From the NCBI GenBank assembly GCA_026396275.1, contig JAPLXC010000002.1:10618-74617 (forward strand): DNA of 64,000 nucleotides, read 5' to 3'. Below are positions 1,839-61,431 of the stretch, piece by piece (within the stretch, counting starts at the first letter, position 1; the number at the start of each line of letters is the position of its first letter). The translations under genes were made by a program, and so were the position numbers. Source of the stretch: Candidatus Moraniibacteriota bacterium (GTDB lineage: Bacteria; Patescibacteriota; Minisyncoccia; Moranbacterales; JAPLXC01). The notes under the pieces were generated by a model, which worked only from the letters and a program-made list of their open reading frames with translations, did no database searches and was not told the origin of the DNA.

Positions 1839-2795
1839 TTAAACATTAAGTCTGCTTTTGAATATTCTTAATAATTCTTTATACAATTTAACCATGTACG
1901 GTTTTTCATTTGGGGTAAAAAATAGACCCGGCATTGAATTCAATTCCACTACCCAGGGCTTTCTCTTTTTGTCAAACATAAAATCAATGGAAAACACTCT
2001 CGGTTCAAAAGTTTCAAAAATTTTATTGGCGTAGTTTACCGCCGCAAAAACTGATTTGGGAATCTTTTTAAACGGTATAATTTTCAGTGTTCCGCCCTGG
2101 GCGAGATTAGCCAGCAAATTTCCTTTCTTGGGCTCGCGAATGTAAGCATAAATCACTTTATTATTTACAAAAACTAATCGAAGATCATGATAATAATTAC
2201 TTACACCGGGAACGCCAAAAGAAGAATCAATAAACTCCTGGGCAAGATAAACTTTGTCTAAAAGAGCTTTGGAAATTGCTTCTTTTTTATTTAGTATTTG
2301 TATATCCTTACCGCCACTTTCCAAAAGGGGCTTTAGAACGACTTTATTAGTTTTTATTTTTGGCAAAACCTTCCTTAATTCTTCCTTGTTATTCACCAGC
2401 CAGCATTTTTTGCTCCATTTTTCGAAAAAAAGACTGGTGATAAATTTGTCGTCAACGAGCTGGGTAAATTGCAAATCATTAATGAATGGATAATTTTCTT
2501 CGATTAGTTCTTTTTTATAATAGACTTCGAGGCGAGCTTTTGTTTTGTCATAAATCAAATCCGGTTTCAAATTTTTTACCTTTTTCCATTTTGCTCCTTC
2601 ACCCTCGAAAACCCAGGCGTACCTAAAAATATTCTTTTGGTAATCATACCACTCGTAGGAGGCGCGATATATCTGAATCCCATTTATTCTGCAAAGATTA
2701 TAAAAATACTCGTAAGAATATTGATATTGCTTGTTTTTAAATGGTTTAGCAGATCGCCAATCACTTTTGCCGAATAATATTAAAACTTTTTTCAT
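1839..2795 (-). CDS. ATP-grasp family ligase (RimK/YheCD-like)
   Basis: 318 aa. ATP-grasp signatures: KVVLKPLLESGGKDIQIL and a C-terminal VVELNSMPGL (E-x-N...PG). First of three consecutive ATP-grasp genes. Confidence 0.55.
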   Translation of the reverse strand: MKKVLILFGKSDWRSAKPFKNKQYQYSYEYFYNLCRINGIQIYRASYEWYDYQKNIFRYAWVFEGEGAKWKKVKNLKPDLIYDKTKARLEVYYKKELIEENYPFINDLQFTQLVDDKFITSLFFEKWSKKCWLVNNKEELRKVLPKIKTNKVVLKPLLESGGKDIQILNKKEAISKALLDKVYLAQEFIDSSFGVPGVSNYYHDLRLVFVNNKVIYAYIREPKKGNLLANLAQGGTLKIIPFKKIPKSVFAAVNYANKIFETFEPRVFSIDFMFDKKRKPWVVELNSMPGLFFTPNEKPYMVKLYKELLRIFKSRLNV

Positions 2796-2868
2796 ACTTT
2801 TCTGTCGTCTATTTATATTAACTACGACTTAGACCAACAACGTAAAGGTCTATATATAACAAAATTAG

Positions 2869-3852
2869 TTATTTAATCTTTAGCTTGGGGAAAAGATTTT
2901 TCAATATTTTTCCTGAGACATCAATTCCGGCTCCTTCTACTAAGGGACTCTCGCTCATATTGTAAAATGGATTAGAGTTTATTTCCAAAATGACATAATT
3001 TTTTTTCGAAGAAAGATTATTGGTCATCAAATCCACGCCTCCCCACGAAAGTCCGGATGCCTGGATAGATTTTACGCAAGTTTTTTTAAGAAATGCGCTC
3101 ATTTTATTGGTGCTTTCAATGGCTCTTCCGCCATCAGACATATTGAGATTATCTCTTAGCTTAAGCTTGGTATTTTTTATTAGTATGCTGTTTAAAGTAA
3201 GGTTATTTTTAGAGAGCGTTTTCTTAGCTACCTTGTCTATTTTTATCTCAAATCCTTTTTTTCTCTTTTTATTAAAAATGTTTACGAGCTCTTGAATTGT
3301 AGAAATACCATCACCCACAATGGTTGCTGGGATTTTTTTCACACAGGAAATAACCTCTCCATCAAAAACTAAGACTCGATATTCATCCCCGATATACATC
3401 TCTTCGATTAGAAATTTGTCGGATCGCAACCACTTTCTAATCTCACGACTATTAATAAGACGAACGGCTGTTTTTAGCTCTTTTTTTGATCGTACATTCC
3501 AAGTTACCCCCTTGGCACATGTTCCGTCAATCGGCTTGGCAATGAACGGATATTTTATTTTTTCTTTTCGGATTAAATTTATTGCCTCGCCATAGGAACT
3601 GGCTACAATCCCTTTGGGAGTTCGTATGTCCATAAGACCAAGAATTGTTTTAGTTAGATCTTTATTAACAACCAATCTGGCCGGATGGACCGACAATGGG
3701 ATAATTCCCATGCGAGAAAAAATAACGTCCTCTCCCAAATAAAATTTTACTAAAGAAAATCGGCCAGGATAAAATTTTACCTTAATTCCTAATTCCAGCG
3801 CTCTTTTGACAAGAGAAGCAAATCCTCCATGAGCTATTTCTTTTTTAATCAT
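2869..3852 (-). CDS. ATP-grasp ligase, cyanophycin-synthetase N-terminal-like / RimK-like
   Basis: 327 aa. YPFIAKPIDGTCAKGV, TIVGDGISTIQELV (cyanophycin-synthetase-like) and VILEINSNPF are ATP-grasp motifs. Starts 17 nt from the upstream gene. Confidence 0.6.
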   Translation of the reverse strand: MIKKEIAHGGFASLVKRALELGIKVKFYPGRFSLVKFYLGEDVIFSRMGIIPLSVHPARLVVNKDLTKTILGLMDIRTPKGIVASSYGEAINLIRKEKIKYPFIAKPIDGTCAKGVTWNVRSKKELKTAVRLINSREIRKWLRSDKFLIEEMYIGDEYRVLVFDGEVISCVKKIPATIVGDGISTIQELVNIFNKKRKKGFEIKIDKVAKKTLSKNNLTLNSILIKNTKLKLRDNLNMSDGGRAIESTNKMSAFLKKTCVKSIQASGLSWGGVDLMTNNLSSKKNYVILEINSNPFYNMSESPLVEGAGIDVSGKILKNLFPKLKIK

Positions 3853-6601: not shown

Positions 6602-7354
6602 TTATAAATTATCAAAGATTTCTTGAACATCGTCTTGGTTATCAAGCGCTTCCAAAAGTTTTTCATAGTCCAGCTTTGTATCCTGATCTAAAGAAATTTT
6701 CTGAAGCGGGGCAAATACAAGACCGGCGTTTTCAATTGATACTTTATGCTTTTCTAAATGTTCTTTTACTTTCTGTAACTCTTCTGATTTCGTAAAAACC
6801 GTTAAAGTTCCGCCGGAATAAATTATGTCTTCTGCGCCTGCTTCAATGGCTTTCAATTCCAGCTCATATGGGTCTTCATCAGCTCCTACTGGAATATTAA
6901 TATTTCCCACTTGCTTAAAAAGATAACTTACTGAACCAGCGGGGACTAATTTGCCTCCGGCTTTAGTTAAAATATTTTTTAACTCTCCGAGTGTCCGATT
7001 TTTATTATCCGTCGCGGTTTTAATGAGCATTGCCACCTGCCCGGAACCACCCGCCTGCTGTACGGGCAGGTAGGCCTCATAAATTACTTCTTCCACTGTT
7101 TCGCCTTTAAGCTCGCCGGTTCCTCGCTTGATAGCCCGCTCAATATTTTCCTTCGGCATGTTAACACTTTTGGCTTGGTCAATGGCTAACTTTAATTTCC
7201 AGTTTGTTTCCGGATTGCTCCCGCCTTCCCGAGAAGCAATGGAAATTGCCCGTCCGAATTTGGTAAAAACATTCGCTCGCTTGGCATCCGTTATCGCCTT
7301 TTTATGTTTTATTCCCGCCCAATGGGAGTGACCTGACATATGATCATGAAGCAT
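6602..7354 (-). CDS. yebC: YebC/PmpR family transcriptional regulator
   Basis: 250 aa. MSGHSHWAGIKHKKAITDAKRANVFTKFGRAI is the conserved YebC N-terminus. Confidence 0.9.
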   Translation of the reverse strand: MLHDHMSGHSHWAGIKHKKAITDAKRANVFTKFGRAISIASREGGSNPETNWKLKLAIDQAKSVNMPKENIERAIKRGTGELKGETVEEVIYEAYLPVQQAGGSGQVAMLIKTATDNKNRTLGELKNILTKAGGKLVPAGSVSYLFKQVGNINIPVGADEDPYELELKAIEAGAEDIIYSGGTLTVFTKSEELQKVKEHLEKHKVSIENAGLVFAPLQKISLDQDTKLDYEKLLEALDNQDDVQEIFDNL

Positions 7355-7420
7355 AAAACATATAACATGCGGCAGGCCTGATTTCTTAATTTGTTACATG
7401 TCTCATGTTGTATGTTATAT
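7342..7420. repeat. Inverted repeat of the CAYRTAACA/ATGTAACAT family between yebC and the LTD-protein gene
   Basis: atgaagcataaaacatataacatg ... catgtctcatgttgtatgttatatg: the two arms are near reverse complements. Same motif family as 11785-11815, 18038-18118, 24368-24435 and 60975-61020. Confidence 0.45.
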
Positions 7421-11479: not shown

Positions 11480-11851
11480 AAGCTGATGTAGATTTGTTCC
11501 TTAATTACCCGTTATTTGACCCCATATTAGAGAGTATACTACGATTTGACAAACTTTGAAAGTCGTGCTAAACTGGTCTGTCATCTGTAAATATGCGCTT
11601 TTGGGTGCAATTTCCGATGACTAGCAGTAAGCTGTAGACAATTGGTGGTGACTATCTTTTGCCATCAATTCAGGGAACTTTCTTGTCCAGATATGGGTGC
11701 AGGGGTTTCGGCTCTTGTTCTCCTCGACATTGTTCTCTCCCTGGGGATCACATTTCCAGGATTGTCTACAGATTAGTGATATATTCATGAAGCATGAAAC
11801 ATGCAACATGAAACAAATTAAAAAAGTTTTTTAACAAAGGAGGGAAGAAAG

Positions 11852-12863: not shown

Positions 12864-12902
12864 TAAAGCAAAACTTTTGATTTTTGCATTTTGATTTTTT
12901 AT

Positions 12903-15900
12903 TTATTCTTCCGTTACTCTCTCCACTTCCTCCAATGTCGTCTCGCCTTCCAAAACCTTAAGGATCCCGTCCTGCTGCATAGTGAGCATTCCGTTTTCAA
13001 TGGCTTTGTCGCGGATGTGGGTGGAAAGTTCGTTAGCATAAATCATTTCCTGGACGGCTTTGTCAATTACTAAGACCTCACTCACAGTGGTACGGCCTTT
13101 GTAGCCGATGCCGTTGCATTTGGCGCACCCTTTGGGCTTGTAAATGTAACTTCCGGGGGGAATTTTTACTCCCGCTTTGGGTGAAATTGACTTAATAATA
13201 TTTTTTATCTTTTCTTTTTCTTCCGCGGTGGGCTTAATTTTTTCCCGGCACTCACAAAGTTTTCGCACCAGCCGCTGCGCCATAAATCCATTGGCGGCGG
13301 TGGCTAAATCATCGGTTCTCACTCCCATATTGAGAAGGCGGGGAATAGCGCCGGGCGCGTCATTGGTATGCAAAGTTGATAAAACCAAATGTCCAGTGAG
13401 CGCCGATTGAACAGCGATGCCGGCTGTTTCCTCATCGCGGATTTCACCAATCATCATAATGTCGGGGTTTTGGCGAAGAAGCGAGCGCAGGGCCGTGGGA
13501 AAAGTGTATCCTTCTTTGTCACTAACCTGTGTTTGTAAAATCCCCGTCAGCTGGTATTCAATCGGATCCTCCACGGTGATTACTTTAACTTCGGGTTTAT
13601 TGAGCACCCGCAGCAAACTGTAAAGCGTCGTTGTTTTTCCGGATCCGGTGGGACCGGTATTGAGAAAAAATCCATTGGGCTTTTTGATTTCATGAAGGAT
13701 TTTATCCAGATTTTGTTTTCTGATCCCCAGTTTATCAACATCCAGCGCCACCGCTCCCCGATTGAGAAGGCGCATCACGACTGTTTCTCCGTAGCCGCCT
13801 AAAATTATGGAAACGCGCACGTCCACTTTTATTTCAGTTATATTTTTAAACGGCCGGTCTATGGCTATGGAAAAACGGCTGTCTTTTACTCCTTGGCGAA
13901 GTTCAGCTTTAAGCCCGGAAAGTATTTTTATCTCTCCTAAAAATGTCGGGTATTCATTGAGGGGAATCCGCCCGATGGTTTGCAAAATCCCGTCAATGCG
14001 AAGGCGCACCAAGACCTCTTTCTCTTCCGGCTCGATATGAATATCGCCGGCGGAAAGCAAAAGCGCCGCCGCGATAACGTAGCGCAGAGCGTCTTTTTGA
14101 TTAGCGCCTTTCAAAAACTCGGCGAATTTTTCGAAGGAGGATGTATTTTTAGAAACCTTTTCCAAATCTTCTTGAGGTATTTCGATCGCCCGGGAAAGCG
14201 ACTGCTCCATTAATTTTTCATAAATCTCTTCAAGGAATTCGGTTTGCCCCGTCACCCGCCATACCTCTTCCAGTGAAGTGATTCCCTCAATGGCTTTCAT
14301 GATCCCATCTTGCGCCATAGTTATCATGCCTTCTTCCAAAGCGGCTTGAGTTATTTCTCCTTCGCTGGCCATGTTTAAAATAAGTTTTTCGATTGATTCG
14401 CTCATGGTGAGAACCTCGAAAACTCCGATTCTCCCCCGATATCCCAGATTATGGCAACGGGGGCAACCTTTTGGCCGATATAATTGAAGGATATCTTTGG
14501 GGATTTCCATTTTTGACTTCGGGGAGATTATCGCCAGAATCTTTTTGATTGAGTTGGCTGTTTCCTTGGCGGGCTGATAGACCTCCCGGCAGTGAGGACA
14601 AATTTTTCGCACCAGGCGCTGGGCGATAAGAGCGCTCACCGCTGGAGCAATAAGGTTGGGTTTGACTCCCAATTCTATCAGGCGCGGAACAGCGCCAGCC
14701 GCGCTGTTGGTGTGAATCGTGGAAAGCACCAGATGCCCAGTTAGTGCGGCGTTAAGGGCAATGTCGGCCGTTTCTTCGTCGCGGATCTCGCCAACCAGAA
14801 TCACGTCCGGATCCTGTCGCACTATCGCCCGCAATCCCTTTTCGAAAGTGTACCCCCGGCTCTTGGACACCTGCGTCTGGGAGATTCCTTTTATTTCATA
14901 TTCCACCGGGTCTTCAATAGTTATTATTTTCACTCCCGGTACATTGATCCGGTTAAGAACGGCGTAAAGCGTTGTGGTTTTCCCGGATCCGGTGGGGCCG
15001 GTGTTGAGAATCATCCCATGGGGCTTTTCTGTCTGTTTTTGCACTTGCTCATAAGCTAGTCCCCGCAATCCCAGTTCCTCAACTCTCAAGAGGACATCGG
15101 CTTGATTGAGAAGACGCATCACGATGCTCTCTCCGCGGTTTCCGGGAATGATGCTGACGCGGATATTGATTAGCCCGTTTTCCAGATTGACATTGAAGTG
15201 CCCGTCCTGGGCAATATCACGGATGTTGAGTTTCATTCCTCCCATCATTTTCACCCGCGATATGATGAAGCGGTAAATATCCAGAGGCAGATATCCGACA
15301 TCCTGCAGAACTCCGTCCAGGCGATAGCGCAGACGCACTTCTTCTTCCTGCGGCTCAAAATGAATGTCGCTGGCTTTCATCTTCACCGCCCCGGCCATAA
15401 TGGTAGTGATAATCTGGGTGGTGGGAATTTCCCGGATCCTTTTTTTGAGTTCCAGCAGATCCTTGAATTCCCTTTCAAATTCTTCAAGGTCTTTTCCGCT
15501 AAGAGACAGGCGGAGAGCGTCCAGATTTTCCAAAAGCGGTGTCTCTTTATACTTATTCAGGGCTTTGCTAAGCGAAGAAAGCGAAACGACATAAAGGCGG
15601 ATGTTCCAACCATTTTCTTGCTGAAGTTTTTTGACGTAATCCAGTGTTTCACGGCTTCCGGGATTGGTCAGCGCCAGCCGGATGTTTTTCCCAGCTTTCT
15701 GAAAGACGGCCACTTGAAAACGGCGCGCCTCCTCTTCGGGAAGAGAGCGAAGCTCATCGCCGCTCAAAGGAAAGAGATTGAGATCAACGTAAAAAAGATT
15801 GTGTTTTTTGGCCAGCGCCGCGGCTTGTTCTTCTTCCGATTCCTTACGCATTCGCCGCAGGACTTGAGACGCCCTGATATCTTTTTCTTTATCAGCCGGC

Positions 15901-15950
15901 AGTGTTTTGCGGAAAACTTTAACCATAGAGTTACGACTATTGTACCGCAT
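12903..15950 (-). CDS. pilB: Tandem-fused double GspE/PilB-type secretion/pilus assembly ATPase
   Basis: 1015 aa = two complete GspE modules. Each has an N1 domain, Walker A (LNTGPTGSGKTTTLYAVL / FLNTGPTGSGKTTTLYSLL), Walker B (DPDVILVGEIRD / NPDIMMIGEIRD), a His box (LTGHLVLSTIHTN / LTGHLVLSTLHTN) and a C4 zinc knuckle (CPHC..CPRC / CECRE..CAKC). Confidence 0.85.
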   Translation of the reverse strand: MRYNSRNSMVKVFRKTLPADKEKDIRASQVLRRMRKESEEEQAAALAKKHNLFYVDLNLFPLSGDELRSLPEEEARRFQVAVFQKAGKNIRLALTNPGSRETLDYVKKLQQENGWNIRLYVVSLSSLSKALNKYKETPLLENLDALRLSLSGKDLEEFEREFKDLLELKKRIREIPTTQIITTIMAGAVKMKASDIHFEPQEEEVRLRYRLDGVLQDVGYLPLDIYRFIISRVKMMGGMKLNIRDIAQDGHFNVNLENGLINIRVSIIPGNRGESIVMRLLNQADVLLRVEELGLRGLAYEQVQKQTEKPHGMILNTGPTGSGKTTTLYAVLNRINVPGVKIITIEDPVEYEIKGISQTQVSKSRGYTFEKGLRAIVRQDPDVILVGEIRDEETADIALNAALTGHLVLSTIHTNSAAGAVPRLIELGVKPNLIAPAVSALIAQRLVRKICPHCREVYQPAKETANSIKKILAIISPKSKMEIPKDILQLYRPKGCPRCHNLGYRGRIGVFEVLTMSESIEKLILNMASEGEITQAALEEGMITMAQDGIMKAIEGITSLEEVWRVTGQTEFLEEIYEKLMEQSLSRAIEIPQEDLEKVSKNTSSFEKFAEFLKGANQKDALRYVIAAALLLSAGDIHIEPEEKEVLVRLRIDGILQTIGRIPLNEYPTFLGEIKILSGLKAELRQGVKDSRFSIAIDRPFKNITEIKVDVRVSIILGGYGETVVMRLLNRGAVALDVDKLGIRKQNLDKILHEIKKPNGFFLNTGPTGSGKTTTLYSLLRVLNKPEVKVITVEDPIEYQLTGILQTQVSDKEGYTFPTALRSLLRQNPDIMMIGEIRDEETAGIAVQSALTGHLVLSTLHTNDAPGAIPRLLNMGVRTDDLATAANGFMAQRLVRKLCECREKIKPTAEEKEKIKNIIKSISPKAGVKIPPGSYIYKPKGCAKCNGIGYKGRTTVSEVLVIDKAVQEMIYANELSTHIRDKAIENGMLTMQQDGILKVLEGETTLEEVERVTEE

Positions 15951-17838: not shown

Positions 17839-18318
17839 ATGAAATCTTATATCACCAACAGCTCCGCGGAAACCAAAAAACTGGGCGAATTACTCGCCCG
17901 CGAGCTTTACGGCGGGGAAATAATTTGTCTTTCCGGTGAACTGGGTTCCGGCAAGACCACATTTGCGCAAGGGCTTCTCAAGGGACTAAAAATAAAAGGA
18001 CCGCACACGAGCCCTACGTTTGTGATAATAAAACAATATCACGTAGCACGTAACACTAAACACATAACAAATAAGAAATCAGAGTTGTTACGTGATATGT
18101 GCTATGTGTTATGTGACATCTACCATATCGACGCCTATCGTGTTACTGCTAAAGATATCTTAAATCTTGGTTGGGGGGAAATTATAAAAGATAAAAGTAA
18201 TATAATAATCGTAGAATGGGCCGACCGGATAAGAAAAATAATTCCCAAAGGGGCCACTCGGATTAAGTTTGAGTGGGTAAGTGAAAATAAAAGAAAAATT
18301 ACCCTCATGTCATCCTGA
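17839..18318 (+). CDS. tsaE: tRNA t6A37 threonylcarbamoyladenosine biosynthesis protein TsaE, carrying an in-frame palindromic insertion
   Basis: GELGSGKTTFAQGL, SPTFVIIKQY and YHIDAYR motifs are present. Between SPTF..Y and YHxDxYR there are about 27 aa (HVARNTKHITNKKSELLRDMCYVLCDI) where E. coli YjeE has about 7. Confidence 0.75.
   Translation: MKSYITNSSAETKKLGELLARELYGGEIICLSGELGSGKTTFAQGLLKGLKIKGPHTSPTFVIIKQYHVARNTKHITNKKSELLRDMCYVLCDIYHIDAYRVTAKDILNLGWGEIIKDKSNIIIVEWADRIRKIIPKGATRIKFEWVSENKRKITLMSS
18038..18118. repeat. CAYRTAACA-family imperfect palindrome inserted in frame within tsaE
   Basis: atcacgtagcacgtaacactaaacacataacaaataag aaatcagag ttgttacgtgatatgtgctatgtgttatgtgacat. The arms pair cacgtaac/gttacgtg and cacataaca/tgttatgtg. 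Confidence 0.6.
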
Positions 18319-19368: not shown

Positions 19369-22071
19369 ATGACAGATAATAAGCCAAAAAAACTCGTCCT
19401 CATCGACGGTAACGCTATTATTCACCGGGCTTATCATGCCCTGCCGCCGCTTACGACCAAAAAAGGGGAACTGGTCAACGCCGTGTACGGCTTTACTAGT
19501 GTCCTTCTTAAGGTTATCAGTGAACTCAAGCCGGATTATATTCTGGCCACTTTTGACTTGAAAGGACCGACTTTCCGCCATGAAGAATACAAAGAATACA
19601 AGGCCACTCGTCCCAAGGCCCCAGATGAACTGATCAATCAAATTGAAAGGGTAAAGGAGGTAGTCCGCGCTTTTAATATTCCTGTTTATGAAAAAAAAGG
19701 GTTCGAAGCCGATGACGTTATTGGCACACTGGCAAGACAAGCCGAGGAGAGCAAAGAGGATGGAGGAATTGAAAATATTATTGTTACCGGCGATTTGGAT
19801 ACCCTGCAATTGGTAGATCTAAAAACAAAAGTATACGCCCTGCGACGGGGAATGAGCGACACGACTGTTTACGATGATCAGGCGGTGAAAGAGCGTTATG
19901 GACTGGCGCCGAATCAGATGATTGATTACAAGGGCCTGCGCGGTGATCCTTCCGACAACATTCCCGGAGTGAAGGGCATCGGCGAAAAAACAGCCATTGA
20001 GCTTTTGCAAAAATATCATTCAATTGAAAATATTTACGCGAATCTGTCTGAAATCAGAGACACCCTTCGCGAAAAACTAGAGCGGGACAAAGCCCAGGCC
20101 ATACTTTCTAAACGGCTGGCAACTATTCATAAAGACGTTCCGGTGGAATTTAACCTGAAGATTTCTGTCACCCAAGAATTTGACCGCGGAAAAATTTTAA
20201 ACCTTTTTCAGGAACTTAATTTTTTTAGCTTGATCAAAAGGATACCCGGCACGAAACAGCCAATGGAATTTGAATCCGCGAGTGCTGAAAGCGGAGGAGT
20301 TAAGGACTTTAAATTTGAATACATAAGCCCGGACAAACTGGACGAATTCGTAAAAAAATTAAAAGAGCAAAAAGAAATTGCACTGTATCTTAGAACCACC
20401 GGGGATAAATACTATAACAGCGACTTGAAAGGAATTGCCTTTGCCTATGAAGCTGGGCGGGCGGGATACGTAGACAATATTAAAAATCAAATATCAAAAA
20501 TAAAAAATGTTATTGAAGATGAGAATATAGAAAAAATTGGATATGACTTAAAATATGTCATTGAGGTTTTAAAAAAATATGACATTAAACTTAAGGGCGA
20601 ATTATCTGACATTATGCTGGCGGCTTACGTTCTTGCTCCCGGAGGAAAAATTGAATTTAAAAATCTGGTTCTGGAGGAATTAGGGGAAGAAATAACGGCT
20701 CGCGGCAAAAAGGGCCAGTTGGGACTAGAAATAGATTCAAAGGAAGAAATAGCCGAGAAAATCTGCCAGGCTGCCGATTACATTTTCAAGCTCAAGCAAA
20801 TTTACGAGCCAAAACTGGAAAAAATAAGCACTGCCCAGAGAAACGAAAACAATCTCAAAAACATCTTCCAAAATATTGAAATGCCGCTCGTTGAAATTTT
20901 AGCCCACATGGAAATGAACGGCGTAAAGTTAAACACCATAATTTTTAAAGGCATATCCAAAAACATCGAGCAGAAAATCGAAAATCTGCAAAAAAGCATT
21001 TATAAGCTGGCCGAGGGTGAATTTAATATCAACTCTCCCCAACAGTTGTCTGAAGTATTATTTTCCAAATTAAAGCTTCCGGCCGAAGATATCAAAAAAA
21101 CCAAAACTGGTTACTCTACTGCTTCCGCGGAACTGGAAAAGCTCCGCGCCAAGCACAAAATAATCGAAAAAATTGAAGAATACCGGGAACTTTTTAAGCT
21201 GAAAACTACTTATCTCGACACTCTGCCGGACCTCGTTGATAAAAATTCCCGCCTTCATACCACTTTTAACCAAGCGGTAACGGCGACTGGCCGTCTTTCA
21301 TCATCAGATCCTAATCTGCAAAATATTCCCATCCGAACAGATTTGGGACAGATTCTTCGCACCGCGTTTGTCACTGAACATGGCTTCCGATTGATAAGCG
21401 GCGATTATTCCCAAATCGATCTTCGCGTGGTCGCTCATGTCAGCGGCGATAAAAAGCTGATTGAGACATTTGCCCGGGGAGAAGATATCCATCGCGCGAC
21501 AGCTTCCGAAATTTTTAAAACTTCTCCTTCCCAGGTAACCGAAACGATGCGCCGCAGCGCTAAAGCCCTTAATTTCGGCATTATTTATGGGATGAGCATC
21601 TTTGGATTTTCGGAGGCAGCGGGAATTGATCGAGATGAGGCCAAAAAGTTCATTGATGATTATATGGAAAAATTCCCCGGCGTGGCTGCCTACATAAGAG
21701 AGACGAAAGAATTTGCCAAGAAAAATGAATATGTGGAAACGCAGCTGGGACGCCGGCGCTATATCCCGGAAATTAACTCTCCCAATTTTCAAGTGGCACA
21801 GGCCGCCGAACGTATGGCTATTAATATGCCGATTCAGGGGCTCGCCGCCGACATTATGAAGCTGGCAATGATCAATATATACAAGGAATACCAAAACGAT
21901 CCGGGGGTAAAAATGGTTCTCCAGATTCACGATGAAATACTGCTGGAAGTCAAGGAAGAAATAGCCGAAAAGGTAGCCGAAAGATTAAAAGAGATTATGG
22001 AAAATGTTTATCAGTTGAAAGTTCCTTTAGTTGCTGAAGTGAAAATAGGAGATAATTGGGGAGAAATCTGA
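19369..22071 (+). CDS. polA: DNA polymerase I
   Basis: 900 aa. N-terminal 5'-3' exonuclease (LIDGNAIIHRAYHALPP). Polymerase motifs RLHTTFNQAVTATGRLSSSDPNLQNIP, DYSQIDLRVVAH and QIHDEILLEV. Confidence 0.92.
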   Translation: MTDNKPKKLVLIDGNAIIHRAYHALPPLTTKKGELVNAVYGFTSVLLKVISELKPDYILATFDLKGPTFRHEEYKEYKATRPKAPDELINQIERVKEVVRAFNIPVYEKKGFEADDVIGTLARQAEESKEDGGIENIIVTGDLDTLQLVDLKTKVYALRRGMSDTTVYDDQAVKERYGLAPNQMIDYKGLRGDPSDNIPGVKGIGEKTAIELLQKYHSIENIYANLSEIRDTLREKLERDKAQAILSKRLATIHKDVPVEFNLKISVTQEFDRGKILNLFQELNFFSLIKRIPGTKQPMEFESASAESGGVKDFKFEYISPDKLDEFVKKLKEQKEIALYLRTTGDKYYNSDLKGIAFAYEAGRAGYVDNIKNQISKIKNVIEDENIEKIGYDLKYVIEVLKKYDIKLKGELSDIMLAAYVLAPGGKIEFKNLVLEELGEEITARGKKGQLGLEIDSKEEIAEKICQAADYIFKLKQIYEPKLEKISTAQRNENNLKNIFQNIEMPLVEILAHMEMNGVKLNTIIFKGISKNIEQKIENLQKSIYKLAEGEFNINSPQQLSEVLFSKLKLPAEDIKKTKTGYSTASAELEKLRAKHKIIEKIEEYRELFKLKTTYLDTLPDLVDKNSRLHTTFNQAVTATGRLSSSDPNLQNIPIRTDLGQILRTAFVTEHGFRLISGDYSQIDLRVVAHVSGDKKLIETFARGEDIHRATASEIFKTSPSQVTETMRRSAKALNFGIIYGMSIFGFSEAAGIDRDEAKKFIDDYMEKFPGVAAYIRETKEFAKKNEYVETQLGRRRYIPEINSPNFQVAQAAERMAINMPIQGLAADIMKLAMINIYKEYQNDPGVKMVLQIHDEILLEVKEEIAEKVAERLKEIMENVYQLKVPLVAEVKIGDNWGEI

Positions 22072-22079
22072 TGCAAATT

Positions 22080-22153
22080 ATGATTCGAATTATATTCAAA
22101 TTAAGATACGAATTTGGATTGTAATTCGAATTTAATTCGTATATAAATTCGCA
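22080..22153. repeat. TACGAAT/ATTCGTA heptamer cluster between polA and fpg
   Basis: tgattcgaattatattcaaattaagatacgaatttggattgtaattcgaatttaattcgtatataaattcgcat. Confidence 0.5.
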
Positions 22154-22154
22154 T

Positions 22155-23024
22155 ATGCCGGAGCTGCCTGAAGTCCAAACAATAATTACTGATCTTAATA
22201 AGAAAATTAAAGGCGATATGATCGTCGGCTTTTGGACTGACTGGCCGAAGGCAATTAAAAATAAATCGGTTAAGAATTTTACAAGAGAAATTAAAGGAAG
22301 AAAAATTTTAGGGGCGCGAAGAATCGGGAAAAATATCTTTATTGATCTTTCCGGCGGAAAGACAATTTACATTCACCTAAAAATGACAGGGCACCTACTG
22401 GTTAAAAATCAAAAATCAAAAATCAAAAATCAAAAATATTTTAGGGAAAAAGTAAACCTGTATATTCACCACGTTTGGAAACTCAAAGCCCAAAACGCAA
22501 AACTTAAAACTTTGGAATTCTCGGATCTTAGAAAATTCGGGAAAATTTTATTAGTTGATACCGGAAAACTTAGGGAAATTAAAGAAATCAAAGAACTGGG
22601 AGTTGATATTATAAGTCCAGGCTTTACTCAAAAATTTTTTAATGCTTTACTGGATAAAAAACAGAACAAGAAAATCCGTGATATTTTAATGGATCAGCGT
22701 TTAATTTCTGGGATTGGAAATATTTACGCTTCAGAAATTCTCTATGAGGCCGGGATGCTGCCGGTAATATTAGCAAAAAATATAAACTCTCAAGAAAGAA
22801 CAAAGCTCTATAATTCCATTAAAGAAGTGCTTGAAAAAGCTATAAAACTAAGGGGAACTTCTGATTCTGATTATCGAGACACTTCCGGGGCGCCGGGAAG
22901 TTTCCAAAAAGTTCTCCGGGTGTACCGGTGCGAAGGACAGCCCTGCCGGAAATGTGGTACAATGGTAAAACGGATAAGAATGGGGCAAAGAAGTGCCTTT
23001 TACTGTCCCCGGTGTCAACATTAA
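22155..23024 (+). CDS. mutM: Formamidopyrimidine-DNA glycosylase (Fpg/Nei family)
   Basis: 289 aa. N-terminal MPELPEVQTI (catalytic Pro2/Glu3). C-terminal zinc finger CRKCGTMVKR...CPRCQ. Confidence 0.85.
   Translation: MPELPEVQTIITDLNKKIKGDMIVGFWTDWPKAIKNKSVKNFTREIKGRKILGARRIGKNIFIDLSGGKTIYIHLKMTGHLLVKNQKSKIKNQKYFREKVNLYIHHVWKLKAQNAKLKTLEFSDLRKFGKILLVDTGKLREIKEIKELGVDIISPGFTQKFFNALLDKKQNKKIRDILMDQRLISGIGNIYASEILYEAGMLPVILAKNINSQERTKLYNSIKEVLEKAIKLRGTSDSDYRDTSGAPGSFQKVLRVYRCEGQPCRKCGTMVKRIRMGQRSAFYCPRCQH
22404..22438 (+). repeat. Heptanucleotide microsatellite (AAAAATC)x4 plus a partial unit inside the fpg CDS
   Basis: aaaaatc aaaaatc aaaaatc aaaaatc aaaaata, encoding KNQKSKIKNQK. The unit length is not a multiple of three. 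Confidence 0.8.
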
Positions 23025-23033
23025 CTGGTTACT

Positions 23034-23138
23034 AATTACGAATTATTTACTAATATACAAATATACGAATATTTTATCCTCTCTTTCTTTTTAGAAAGAA
23101 AATTAAGAGATTAAATTCGTATATTCGTATAAAATTCG
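23034..23138. repeat. TACGAAT/ATTCGTA heptamer cluster with a central palindrome, 3' of fpg
   Basis: ttacgaatt..actaatatacaaatatacgaatatt - ctctttctttttagaaagaaaa - attcgtatattcgtataaaattcg. Inverted arms around the ttctttttagaaagaa palindrome. Confidence 0.55.
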
Positions 23139-23258
23139 CCCGCCTGCTTCAAAATTAATTATATGGCGGGATTAATGAAATTATTTGCTCCGAAAAAATA
23201 ACTAACGATGGCAACTCAACAATGAAGCATTTCGGGCAGGTAATTCGTAAAGAAAATC

Positions 23259-24368
23259 ATGAGTAAAAAGCAAAAAATAGTTATCGCTCTCATCGCCATT
23301 CTGGTCGCTGGATTAATTACTTACGCCACAGTGGGGCGGAAAATGATTCGTTCCAGCAAGGTAAAACAAATTAAAGTAGATCAGCAAGAAGCGGACGCCG
23401 GCTCTGCCAATCAGGGTCCGGTTAGCCCTATTTCCGGACTTTCCTGCGACAATTGGAATCGCCGGCCGATCGCCGTAATGCAGCCAGCTGATGTTCCCGC
23501 CCGCCCGGCTGCCGGCTTATCCGATGCGGACATGGTCATTGAAATGCCGGTTATTACAGCGACAATAACCCGCCTTATGGGAGTTTACGTCTGCAACGAC
23601 CCGGATGACGTTGGTTCAATGAGAAGCGCCCGGCACGATTTTGTCCATCTGGCTAAAGGACTGGATGCTATTTTTGTCCATTGGGGAAGATCGGATTTGG
23701 AGTGGTTTAAGGAACAACTAAACAATGGGGTTATTGATCAGATTAATTGCAACGATGACGCCGGCAAACCAGGTCTTCGGCTCGGATTCTGCTATCGAAA
23801 AGAAGCTAATGGAACGATGCGGGGAGTGGATACTGGGTACGCAAAATTTTCAAAGCTTATTGAAGGGGTAAAATATTACCAATACCGCCTGGAGAATAAA
23901 TTTTCCGGTTATCCTCACCAGGCTGAGCCCCCGATAGATCAGAGGCCAAGCGGCGGGCACTTGAGAGTGGCCTTTGCCGGTCCTTTCGCCGTTGAATATG
24001 ACTATGATAGAAGCGCAAACAGTTATTTGAGGACCTGGGGGAATGTTCTTGATACTGATCGTAATAATGGAAAAAGAATAGTTCCTAAAAATGTGGCGGT
24101 TTTATTTGCCCAATCATCCCAGATTGAAGGCCAATATAATAATGTCCAGCTGGGTGATCCTTGGATGGACACTTCCGACTCCGGAGACGCTTATTATTAT
24201 TTCAACGGAAAAGAATACCGGGGAACTTGGAAAAAAGACAAGGGAAACATTGCCAGTAAATTATTCTTCTATGACACTTCTGGCCAGGAAATAAAATTTG
24301 TTCCCGGCCAAATTTGGGTGGAAATTTTAGAGCCGGGGCAGCGACTGAAATGGGAACCAGTTCAGTAA
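23259..24368 (+). CDS. DUF3048-domain lipoprotein-like protein (YerB-like)
   Basis: 369 aa. N-terminal TM/signal. IAVMQPADVPARPAAGLSDADMVIEMPV resembles the DUF3048 N-terminal motif. Noticeably more GC-rich than its neighbours. Confidence 0.55.
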   Translation: MSKKQKIVIALIAILVAGLITYATVGRKMIRSSKVKQIKVDQQEADAGSANQGPVSPISGLSCDNWNRRPIAVMQPADVPARPAAGLSDADMVIEMPVITATITRLMGVYVCNDPDDVGSMRSARHDFVHLAKGLDAIFVHWGRSDLEWFKEQLNNGVIDQINCNDDAGKPGLRLGFCYRKEANGTMRGVDTGYAKFSKLIEGVKYYQYRLENKFSGYPHQAEPPIDQRPSGGHLRVAFAGPFAVEYDYDRSANSYLRTWGNVLDTDRNNGKRIVPKNVAVLFAQSSQIEGQYNNVQLGDPWMDTSDSGDAYYYFNGKEYRGTWKKDKGNIASKLFFYDTSGQEIKFVPGQIWVEILEPGQRLKWEPVQ

Positions 24369-24435
24369 TCATATAACACGCAACATATAACATGTAACAC
24401 AATAATTGGTTTCATGTTTTGGTTTCATATTTCAT
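24368..24435. repeat. CAYRTAACA/ATGTAACAT-family repeat between the DUF3048 gene and holA
   Basis: catataacacgcaacatataacatgtaacac ... gtttcatgttttggtttcatatttcatg (inverted arms). Confidence 0.45.
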
Positions 24436-60982: not shown

Positions 60983-61101
60983 GATCATGGAACATATAGC
61001 ATGAAACATGTAACATTAACAGGGAAAGATTTTACAAAACAGGAATTGGTAGATTAGTAAAGAAATTCATATTAAGAGCGATGAAAAGTTTAAGTAAATC
61101 G

Positions 61102-61170: not shown

Positions 61171-61431
61171 ATGTATACCGTATACGTGTTACAAGACAAA
61201 GAAGGAAAATTTTACAAAGGTGTTACAAATAATATTAAGCGCCGACTCTATGAACATAAACAGGGCAAAACAAAAACTACAAGAAAGATGGACGAGTTAA
61301 AAATTGTTTACACAGAAAAATACAAAAACTTTAAAGAAGTGAGAAGAAGAGAAGTTTATTTTAAAACTGCAGCAGGAAGAAGATTTTTAAAGAAAATATT
61401 AAATAAAAGGGCGACTAGCTCAGCTGGTTAG
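61171..61431 (+). CDS. Small GIY-YIG nuclease (second copy), embedded in the tRNA locus with its stop codon inside tRNA-Val
   Basis: 86 aa. MYTVYVLQDKEGKFYKGVTNNIKRRLYEHKQG is a GIY-YIG signature. Track coordinates used; my hand count puts the ATG at 61172. Confidence 0.6.
   Translation: MYTVYVLQDKEGKFYKGVTNNIKRRLYEHKQGKTKTTRKMDELKIVYTEKYKNFKEVRRREVYFKTAAGRRFLKKILNKRATSSAG

What the first reader, a model, noticed from the sequence alone, without database searches (positions are those of the whole stretch)
22404..22438. Heptanucleotide (AAAAATC) microsatellite inside fpg/mutM
Four and a half tandem 7-nt units lie within the Fpg coding region. Each unit gained or lost would shift the frame by one (a 3-unit change would restore it). 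Tandem short repeats inside coding regions are the classic substrate for slipped-strand phase variation. Switching a base-excision-repair glycosylase on and off would modulate the mutation rate. It may also be a neutral in-frame loop insertion (KNQKSKIKNQK).
Basis: partly seen in the sequence, partly recalled or inferred. Interest (0 to 1): 0.5.

Follow-up and report, generated by a model that had tools for sequence, protein, structure and literature searches.

The report
Slippage-prone 7-base repeat inside fpg
A perfect 7-base repeat sits in a flexible surface loop of an intact DNA-repair gene (fpg) of an uncultivated groundwater-type bacterium; in two related species, the same kind of repeat at the same spot occurs in nature both with and without one unit, and losing that unit breaks the gene.

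Summary
Window 22404..22437 is (AAAAATC)x4.9, perfect, and the longest short tandem repeat in the 64 kb. It lies in frame in an intact 289-aa Fpg/MutM and codes K84-K94 (KNQKSKIKNQK). The segment is a low-confidence surface loop whose length varies from 8 to more than 40 residues among relatives. Loop 1 is built from 7-nt repeats across the whole Moranbacteria-like clade, with different units in different species.

In two sister species, intact and frameshifted fpg alleles exist in public assemblies. Each pair is identical over about 1,460 nt except for exactly one 7-nt unit, so arrays of this size at this site do slip and switch the gene off in nature.

No second genome of the window's own species is on record, so variation here is untested. 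A third sister species carries the same AAAAATC unit and shows no length variants in 20 or more contigs.

The mechanism (slippage giving ON/OFF alleles) is demonstrated at orthologous arrays. High-frequency reversible switching and any adaptive mutator role are not shown. The 'tolerant in-frame loop' reading also holds for the current state.

The parts
22155..23024 (+). fpg/mutM gene, intact (ON state), 289 aa. It has the N-terminal Pro2/Glu3, K59, M77, R126, F128, the H2TH domain and a four-Cys zinc finger.
   Evidence: ORF list. Pfam matches to three domains. PDB sequence matches at about 1e-36. Invariant catalytic columns in a 52-sequence alignment. AF2 model with TM 0.71 to L. lactis Fpg-DNA complex 1pm5.
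22404..22437 (+). Perfect heptanucleotide microsatellite (AAAAATC)x4.9. It is read in all three codon phases and codes loop 1 (K84-K94, KNQKSKIKNQK).
   Evidence: TRF. Longest perfect short repeat in the window and beyond all simulations. Predicted effects of unit gain or loss. Orthologous arrays in sister species are polymorphic by one unit.
22484..22512 (+). Degenerate heptamer array (CAAAGCC CAAAACG CAAAACT TAAAACT) coding loop 2 (KAQNAKL), the second length-variable loop of the N-terminal domain.
   Evidence: Period-7 tract detected. Loop-2 p7 = 0.71. Loop 2 ranges from 3 to 32 aa among relatives. In relative L009, loop 2 carries a 29-nt perfect AAAAATC tract.
19369..22071 (+). polA (DNA polymerase I), the upstream neighbour, given as context. 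It contains a degenerate AAAAATC-like tract at 20476..20508 that codes IKNQISKIKNVI.
   Evidence: ORF list, TRF rows 20476/20482, pattern search. The polA-fpg-DUF3048-holA gene order recurs in relatives.

Best explanation
The tract is a live coding microsatellite. It is an A-rich 7-nt array sitting in a structurally tolerant surface loop (loop 1, just after the HLKMTGHLL strand) of the N-terminal domain of a functional Fpg/MutM.

Because 7 is not a multiple of 3, the array is read in three codon phases. It is in frame only at unit numbers n, n+-3 and so on. Replication slippage that gains or loses one or two units truncates Fpg at 91-104 aa. The truncated product keeps the N-terminal Pro2/Glu3 but lacks R126/F128, the H2TH domain and the zinc finger, so it is a null allele.

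In this genome the array is in the ON state. In the clade the array behaves as an insertion/deletion hotspot that produces segregating ON and OFF alleles. Selection keeps most genomes ON.

Shown: the repeat, its frame, the tolerant loop, the clade-wide 7-nt periodicity, and one-unit ON/OFF allele pairs at the orthologous arrays of two sister species.

Inferred: that the window's own array slips at a comparable rate, that the perfect arrays are kept uniform by repeated slippage, and that OFF cells have raised G:C>T:A mutation (from established knowledge of Fpg in 8-oxoG repair).

Open: whether the switching is an evolved contingency mechanism or merely a tolerated mutational liability.
For: Repeat and frame.

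Intact Fpg.

Tolerant loop: pLDDT blocks of 59 and 54 for residues 81-100. Loop 1 is 8-28 aa and loop 2 is 3-32 aa in 52 relatives that are otherwise 61-78% identical to the window's protein.

Clade-wide 7-nt periodicity with different units: AAAAGCT in L008, AAAAATT in L016, AAAACCC x4 in L011, AAAAGTT in L005/L007, and degenerate AAAAATC of the same 11-aa length in L017 and P0019. The same AAAAATC unit occurs as a 32-nt perfect tract, in another codon phase, in the P0004 species at 72% aa identity.

Direct polymorphism, species B: (AAATCTC)4 gives an intact 287-aa Fpg on 18 contigs. (AAATCTC)3 gives a split gene on a 21-kb contig. There are 0 mismatches over 1,464 nt apart from the unit.

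Direct polymorphism, species A: AAAAGTC at n versus n-1, with 0 mismatches over 1,461 nt. The predicted '+1 unit' proteins were found by exact look-up.

A third split gene (L096) also breaks at a loop-1 AAAATCC array and is restored by +1 unit.

In both species the one-unit indel is the only difference in about 1.46 kb. So the array mutates far faster than the surrounding sites.
Against: No variant of the window's own species exists in any collection searched. There is one genome only. The flank-anchored DNA search found nothing. None of the +-1, +-2 or +-3 unit products is on record.

The P0004 species has the same unit and a similar tract length. It shows three point-mutant alleles but no length variant: 20 contigs read, plus 1 more, plus 2 unbiased DNA hits.

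All 80 best GTDB species-representative loci are full length.

Only n and n-1 states were seen, and no expansions.

At 4.9 units the tract is short next to established heptamer contingency loci. neuO has 3-53 units, with 20 the commonest (PMC13001214).
Confidence: 0.6

Rival explanations
1. Evolved contingency locus acting as a mutator switch. On this view the array is maintained by selection because reversible, high-frequency ON/OFF switching of Fpg lets part of the population raise its G:C>T:A mutation rate. This would be analogous to the homopolymer tract in H. pylori mutY.
For: ON/OFF allele pairs differing by one unit occur in two sister species, and the OFF allele carries no further damage. 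Perfect 31-34 nt arrays persist in at least five lineages with different units although the flanks have diverged. That suggests maintenance. The precedent of a slippage-inactivated base-excision gene, with about a 26-fold rise in mutation rate, is H. pylori mutY (PMC8875331, citing Huang et al. 2006).
Against: OFF alleles are rare: 1 of 19 contigs in species B, 0 of 20 or more in the P0004 species, and 0 of the 80 best GTDB species-representative loci. For neuO, 66% of genomes are OFF (PMC13001214). Only contraction by one unit was seen, reversion was never observed, and the copy number is low and narrowly bounded. No phenotype is measurable here. No report of phase-variable fpg was found.
Confidence: 0.15
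2. Static low-complexity loop. On this view the repeat is a fossil of an old duplication that now merely codes a neutral Lys/Asn/Gln-rich loop. It would be effectively stable in this species, and the frameshifted relatives would be ordinary rare pseudogene alleles.
For: Loop 1 tolerates almost any sequence and length. The window's 11-aa length equals that of P0019, L017, P0070 and others, so the length has been stable over deep divergence. The P0004 species shows no length variation.
Against: A 34-nt tract with no interruption cannot be old and static when flanking synonymous sites are saturated between species at 55-76% aa identity. It needs recent or continuing homogenisation (inference). 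In two sister species the only difference over about 1.46 kb is a one-unit indel at this very site. All three clean split genes break at the array.
Confidence: 0.2
3. Assembly or sequencing artefact. Either the repeat, or the one-unit differences in relatives, would be errors.
For: The data are metagenome assemblies, and no reads could be inspected.
Against: The tracts are 25-34 nt, far shorter than reads and shorter than the assembly k-mers (k127/k141 in the contig names). The same allele recurs in many independent assemblies. Two species show the same type of event at the same site. The difference is an exact 7-nt unit, not a homopolymer error.
Confidence: 0.03

Closest known systems
E. coli K1 neuO (CUS-3 prophage O-acetyltransferase): heptanucleotide AAGACTC coding repeat
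   Same: The unit is 7 nt and lies inside the coding sequence. It is translated in all three phases, and the full-length protein is made only when the unit number fits the frame (every third number). Switching is by strand slippage (PMC13001214).
   Different: The neuO array is at the 5' end of the gene and ranges from 3 to 53 units. 66% of 64 genomes are OFF, and single cultures contain n-1 and n+1 subpopulations. Here the array is in an internal loop (codon 84 of 289) and the perfect arrays are all 4.4-4.9 units. Only n and n-1 were seen, and OFF is rare. The proteins are unrelated.
H. pylori mutY homopolymer tract (slippage-inactivated base-excision glycosylase)
   Same: A short repeat lies inside a GO-system base-excision repair gene. 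Slippage frameshifts the gene and abolishes its function. The expected consequence is a mutator subpopulation (PMC8875331, citing Huang, Kang and Blaser 2006).
   Different: In mutY the repeat is a mononucleotide tract and the mutation-rate effect was measured. Here the repeat is a heptamer array in fpg of uncultivated Patescibacteria, and no phenotype is measurable.
Canonical bacterial Fpg/MutM (E. coli, L. lactis, G. stearothermophilus structures)
   Same: Same fold and domain order, with all catalytic and DNA-intercalating residues conserved.
   Different: In the HMMER alignment, L. lactis Fpg has a 7-residue gap opposite the window's LVKNQKS and further gaps downstream. The Moranbacteria-like clade has two expanded, length-variable loops built from 7-nt DNA repeats.
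H. influenzae heptanucleotide SSRs (hmw1A/hmw2A promoter repeats; (AATTTTG)14 inside hmw1a of strain PittAA)
   Same: Heptanucleotide SSRs are accepted as mediators of phase variation. That survey counted three or more units as an SSR. An intragenic heptamer array was associated with a frameshift (PMC2651432).
   Different: Those loci affect surface adhesins of a pathogen and carry 13-38 units. This one is a housekeeping repair gene with fewer than 5 units.

Membership tests
Fpg/MutM (formamidopyrimidine-DNA glycosylase, Fpg/Nei superfamily) | N-terminal catalytic Pro2-Glu3 after the initiator Met | tested here: met
   The sequence starts MPELPEV. P2 and E3 are invariant in the 52-sequence alignment.
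Fpg/MutM (formamidopyrimidine-DNA glycosylase, Fpg/Nei superfamily) | Three-part architecture: Fapy_DNA_glyco N-domain, H2TH domain and C-terminal four-Cys zinc finger | tested here: met
   Pfam PF01149 (88 bits), PF06831 (79 bits) and PF06827 (41 bits), all above their curated cut-offs. C264, C267, C284 and C287 are invariant.
Fpg/MutM (formamidopyrimidine-DNA glycosylase, Fpg/Nei superfamily) | DNA-intercalating Met/Arg/Phe triad and the Fpg fold | tested here: met
   M77, R126 and F128 are invariant. The AF2 model has TM 0.71 to 1pm5_A and 0.69 to 1r2y_A.
Fpg/MutM (formamidopyrimidine-DNA glycosylase, Fpg/Nei superfamily) | 8-oxoG/Fapy glycosylase-lyase activity | not testable with these tools
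   This needs an enzymatic assay.
SSR-mediated phase-variable (contingency) locus | Uninterrupted non-triplet SSR inside the ORF, or in its promoter, whose length change alters expression | tested here: met
   (AAAAATC)4.9 at codons 84-94. Changes of +-1 or +-2 units truncate the product at 91-104 aa. The tract exceeds the 3-unit threshold for heptamers used in the H. influenzae survey (PMC2651432).
SSR-mediated phase-variable (contingency) locus | Repeat-number variation among strains or within populations of the same species | tested here: inconclusive
   Window species: one genome only and no variant on record. Orthologous arrays: variation by one unit in species A and B, and none in the P0004 species.
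SSR-mediated phase-variable (contingency) locus | High-frequency, reversible switching (ON to OFF to ON) | not testable with these tools
   This needs read-level allele frequencies, time series or a reporter assay. Only n and n-1 alleles were seen.
SSR-mediated phase-variable (contingency) locus | Both phases common in natural populations | tested here: not met
   OFF alleles account for 1 of 19 contigs (species B), 1 of 2 (species A), 0 of 20 or more (P0004 species) and 0 of the 80 best GTDB species-representative loci. For neuO the figure is 66% OFF (PMC13001214).
neuO-type translated heptanucleotide repeat | 7-nt unit translated in three phases, with full-length product only at every third unit number | tested here: met
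   unit changes of 0 and +-3 give proteins of 289, 282 and 296 aa, and all other changes truncate.
neuO-type translated heptanucleotide repeat | Large, widely varying copy number at the 5' end of the gene, and homology to neuO/CUS-3 | tested here: not met
   The array has 4.9 units at codon 84 and all perfect clade arrays have 4.4-4.9 units. The host gene is fpg, not an acetyltransferase.

The most novel reading that the evidence does not exclude
A clade of Moranbacteria-like Patescibacteria maintains, by selection, a heptanucleotide array in a tolerant loop of Fpg as a reversible mutator switch. Slippage by one unit would turn 8-oxoG repair off in part of the population and a second slip would restore it. 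This would give these tiny-genome episymbionts a tunable mutation rate. The window's (AAAAATC)4.9 array would be one ON-state example.
Probability: 0.15. Interest if true: 0.75.

Novelty: new member of a known kind. Interest (0 to 1): 0.55.

Why it matters
SSR-driven gene switching is known almost entirely from host-adapted pathogens and from surface or restriction-modification genes. Here a non-triplet microsatellite sits inside a housekeeping base-excision repair gene of uncultivated CPR bacteria. It is conserved as a 7-nt periodic array across a clade, and natural intact and broken alleles differ by a single unit.

If the switching proves frequent and reversible, it would be a mutation-rate switch in a major uncultivated lineage. 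It could be tested with existing groundwater time-series reads.

Even if it is non-adaptive, two points remain useful. It is a clean example of how slippage of a non-triplet repeat shapes protein loop length under a reading-frame constraint. It also warns annotators that split fpg genes in these MAGs can be one-unit slippage alleles and not decayed pseudogenes.

Tried and rejected
- **Same-species variants.** A flank-anchored variable-gap DNA search of JGI metagenome contigs found nothing. The exact-protein contig look-up found nothing. Exact look-ups of the predicted +-1, +-2 and +-3 unit products found nothing.
- **P0004 species look-up.** This look-up is by exact protein and so is biased towards invariant alleles. 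I complemented it with an unbiased flank search, which gave 2 hits of the same length, and with exact look-ups of variant products, which found none.
- **Genome-wide explanation.** At high stringency the fpg tract is the only period-7 tract in the window. At lower stringency period 7 is enriched (9 against 0.2 expected), but the other tracts are mostly a different, intergenic unit family. The fpg array is therefore not simply one instance of a genome-wide element.
- **L099 (P0138).** The split gene contains runs of N and a large loop insert, so it is uninformative.
- **L111 (P0127).** The Fpg N-terminus is joined, right after the AAAATCC array, to an unrelated sequence. From memory only (no search was run) it resembles the N-terminal region of UvrC. 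It is either a chimeric assembly or a rearrangement and was not used.
- **L096.** The frame break is at the array and +1 unit restores the frame, but no matching ON allele is on record.
- **Programmed ribosomal frameshifting.** Rejected on reading the sequence: no X XXY YYZ slippery heptamer exists in the zero frame, because the A runs are only five long and are flanked by C or T.
- **Rfam and tRNA scans.** These found only a tRNA-Val at 61409.
- **Distance of the loop from bound DNA.** This could not be computed because model coordinates are not exposed. The 'surface loop' claim rests on low pLDDT and extreme length tolerance.
- **Remaining short fragments.** Most of the 65 short N-terminal fragments come from contigs of 0.5-2 kb and cannot be classified without DNA.

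Full report
**1. The observation**

Window 22404..22437 is AAAAATC repeated 4.9 times without a single mismatch. It is the longest perfect tract of any period from 1 to 15 in the 64-kb window. It measures 34 nt, and the next longest for periods 4-9 is 20 nt. In 200 third-order Markov simulations the longest tract was 22 nt. So it is not a chance feature.

The tract lies in ORF 22155..23024 (+), 289 aa. Codon 84 begins exactly at 22404, and the repeat is read as K84-N-Q-K-S-K-I-K-N-Q-K94.

**2. The gene**

The ORF is an intact Fpg/MutM.
- Pfam finds the Fapy_DNA_glyco N-domain, the H2TH domain and the Fpg zinc finger, all above their curated cut-offs.
- Solved Fpg/MutM structures match at about 1e-36 over residues 1-288.
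- P2, E3, K59, M77, R126, F128, N189, R279 and the four zinc-finger cysteines are invariant in an alignment of 52 relatives.
- An AlphaFold2 model (mean pLDDT 80) superposes on L. lactis and G. stearothermophilus Fpg-DNA complexes with TM about 0.7.

The upstream neighbour is polA. Downstream lie a DUF3048 gene and holA, and relatives share this gene order.

The closest relatives are labelled Candidatus Moranbacteria, Moraniibacteriota or Patescibacteria. The window's own protein is on record once, from an NCBI MAG contig of 139 kb, and the next relative is only 76% identical.

**3. Where the repeat sits in the protein**

The repeat follows the invariant HLKMTGHLL.K strand, which contains the intercalating Met77. 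It precedes the conserved YF..VN.YIHH segment.

In the model, residues 81-100 have the lowest confidence in the N-terminal domain, with block means of 59 and 54. In the HMMER alignment, L. lactis Fpg has a 7-residue gap opposite the window's LVKNQKS.

Among 52 relatives that are otherwise 61-78% identical to the window's protein, this 'loop 1' ranges from 8 to 28 residues. A second loop ('loop 2', window KAQNAKL) ranges from 3 to 32 residues. More distant relatives have loop-1 inserts of more than 40 residues.

**4. The repeat is a clade-wide feature, not a one-off**

In the DNA of relatives, loop 1 is 7-nt periodic in most species of the closest clade, but the unit differs:

| Relative | Unit or state |
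|---|---|
| L008 | AAAAGCT |
| L016 | AAAAATT |
| L011 | AAAACCC x4 (32 nt, perfect) |
| L005, L007 | AAAAGTT/G |
| P0002 | AAAAGGT |
| L017, P0019 | degenerate AAAAATC arrays of exactly the window's 11-codon length and phase |

The P0004 species (72% aa identity) has the same AAAAATC unit as a 32-nt perfect tract, in a different codon phase (KSKIKNQKSKL). L009 carries a 29-nt perfect AAAAATC tract in loop 2. The window's own loop 2 is a degenerate CAAAACN heptamer array. A more distant clade (about 45% identity) has a short, non-repetitive loop.

The units give quite different amino acids (KNQKSKI, KPKTQNP, KSEKLKV), yet the 7-nt period is kept. So the periodicity is a property of the DNA and not of the protein.

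Perfect 31-34-nt arrays persist in several lineages whose flanks have diverged to saturation. By inference, the arrays are being kept uniform by continuing slippage. This is the usual life cycle of a microsatellite.

**5. Does the array change length and break the gene?**

*Window species.* This cannot be tested. A flank-anchored DNA search of metagenome contigs found nothing. The exact protein has no other contig on record. None of the products predicted for +-1, +-2 or +-3 units exists among about 15 billion proteins.

*P0004 species (same unit).*
- 20 contigs from NCBI, JGI and ENA assemblies carry the same protein, and the 10 examined have identical gene DNA.
- Two further alleles with point substitutions (P0007, P0008) have the same loop.
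- Two unbiased flank-anchored hits have the same tract length.
- No variant-length product is on record.

In that species the array is stable at the consensus level.

*Clade-wide search.* A search with only the 83 residues upstream of the repeat returned short N-terminal Fpg fragments. Three of them lie on contigs of 9.7 to 34.7 kb (L096, L097, L098). In all three, the N-terminal part is in frame 0 and the entire remainder of the gene is intact in frame 2, down to the final CPxCQK. The break lies at the loop-1 heptamer array, with units AAAATCC, AAAAGTC and AAATCTC.

Adding exactly one unit restores the frame in all three. For two of them the predicted '+1 unit' protein exists exactly in the collection:
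- P0186 (286 aa).
- P0187 (287 aa; 18 contigs read, including two NCBI Moranbacteria MAGs).

*DNA comparison.*

| Species | ON allele | OFF allele | Aligned length | Mismatches | Only difference |
|---|---|---|---|---|---|
| B | (AAATCTC)4, loci L100-L109 | (AAATCTC)3, locus L098 | 1,464 nt | 0 | one AAATCTC unit |
| A | AAAGTC(AAAAGTC)3, locus L110 | one unit fewer, locus L097 | 1,461 nt | 0 | one 7-nt unit |

So arrays of 4.4-4.6 units, at the same site and of the same size class as the window's, do lose a unit in nature and thereby split fpg. The indel is the only difference in about 1.46 kb in both species, so the array is by far the most mutable site of the locus.

**6. What this does and does not show**

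It does not show high-frequency or reversible switching.
- Only n and n-1 were found. No n+1, n+2, n-2 or n+-3 state is on record.
- OFF alleles are rare: 1 of 19 contigs in species B, 1 of 2 in species A, 0 of 20 or more in the P0004 species.
- All 80 best GTDB species-representative loci are full length.

For comparison, the established heptanucleotide coding switch is neuO of E. coli K1. It ranges from 3 to 53 units, and 66% of 64 complete genomes are OFF. Single cultures contain n-1 and n+1 subpopulations (PMC13001214).

A slippage-inactivated base-excision gene with a measured mutator effect is known from H. pylori mutY (PMC8875331). The H. influenzae SSR survey counts three or more heptamer units as an SSR and describes an intragenic heptamer array associated with a frameshift (PMC2651432).

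I found no paper reporting a phase-variable fpg/mutM, or SSR phase variation in CPR/Patescibacteria, in the library searched.

**7. Best explanation and rivals**

Most likely (about 0.6), the tract is a live, slippage-prone coding microsatellite in a tolerant loop. It is currently in frame. It acts as an indel hotspot producing null fpg alleles that segregate at low frequency, and selection keeps most genomes ON.

An evolved, reversible mutator switch is possible (about 0.15), but the rarity of OFF alleles and the narrow copy-number range argue against it.

A static neutral loop (about 0.2) fits the P0004 species. It does not fit the perfection of the tract or the sister-species polymorphism.

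An artefact is unlikely (about 0.03). The tracts are much shorter than reads and k-mers, the alleles recur in independent assemblies, and the differences are exact 7-nt units.

**8. Novelty and score**

The mechanism is of a known kind: an SSR frameshift switch, with neuO and H. pylori mutY as the closest parallels.

The host gene (fpg), the lineage (uncultivated Patescibacteria), the clade-wide persistence of a non-triplet array in two loops, and the natural one-unit ON/OFF allele pairs appear to be unreported.

I rate it a new member of a known kind, with interest 0.55. It is directly testable with existing read data.

Noticed in passing
window 7345-7368, 11785-11815, 18040-18116, 24365-24399, 60986-61021: Degenerate heptamer arrays of a second unit family (CATGAAN / CATATAA / CATGTAA / CACGTAA) lie mostly in intergenic spacers, for example between the DUF3048 gene and holA. 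Overall, period-7 tracts are strongly enriched in the window (9 observed against 0.2 expected in Markov simulations), while other periods are near expectation. Their function is unknown. No Rfam family matches.
   Followed up: partly
window 22069-22156 and 23030-23140; also 10395/10440, 50139, 52998/53060, 53802: The word ATTCGTAT occurs 12 times against 2.3 expected. It often occurs as inverted pairs (ATACGAAT ... ATTCGTAT) in spacers, including both spacers flanking fpg. Three AATTCGNAT copies at about 12-nt spacing run into the fpg start codon. This may be an operator or promoter motif.
   Followed up: partly
window 20476-20508 (inside polA, 19369..22071 +): A degenerate AAAAATC-like tract codes IKNQISKIKNVI in DNA polymerase I. 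It resembles the fpg loop peptide. I did not check whether this is also a variable loop in PolA relatives.
   Followed up: no
window 12875-12904: A TTTTGAT-like tract, the reverse complement of the AAAAATC family at 78% periodicity, lies immediately upstream of the start of the 1015-aa ATPase-like gene on the minus strand (12903..15950).
   Followed up: no
relatives: P0020/P0024/P0030 loop 1; L012 loop 1 (2501-3394 region): Some relatives carry hairpin-like inserts in loop 1 instead of heptamer arrays. One example is the peptide ..GHPLPKGEG... I have not seen its DNA. Back-translated by hand it could be the palindrome CCCCTCCCCAAAGGGGAGGGG, which is conjecture. In L012 the loop DNA does contain an inverted repeat, GAGGTTCGACCTCTC...AGAGGTCGAACCTCT. 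This suggests that small palindromic elements also insert in frame at this loop.
   Followed up: no
L081-L090 (P0004 species), locus coordinates 216-1385 and 2495-3701: While fpg is identical in all these assemblies, its neighbours vary between them. The MFS transporter gene is intact (389 aa) in some and split into small ORFs in others. The DUF3048 gene is called at 295, 314, 383 or 388 aa. So there is strain-level indel variation next to an invariant fpg.
   Followed up: no
L111 1201-1809 (JGI 3300025841 contig Ga0210028_1044781): An Fpg N-terminus is joined, directly after an (AAAATCC)n loop-1 array, to an unrelated sequence (..IFPYRTCKTMPKRPCLYKELGLCPAPC..). From memory only, this resembles the N-terminal region of UvrC, and no search was run. 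It is either a chimeric assembly or a rearrangement with its breakpoint at the array.
   Followed up: partly
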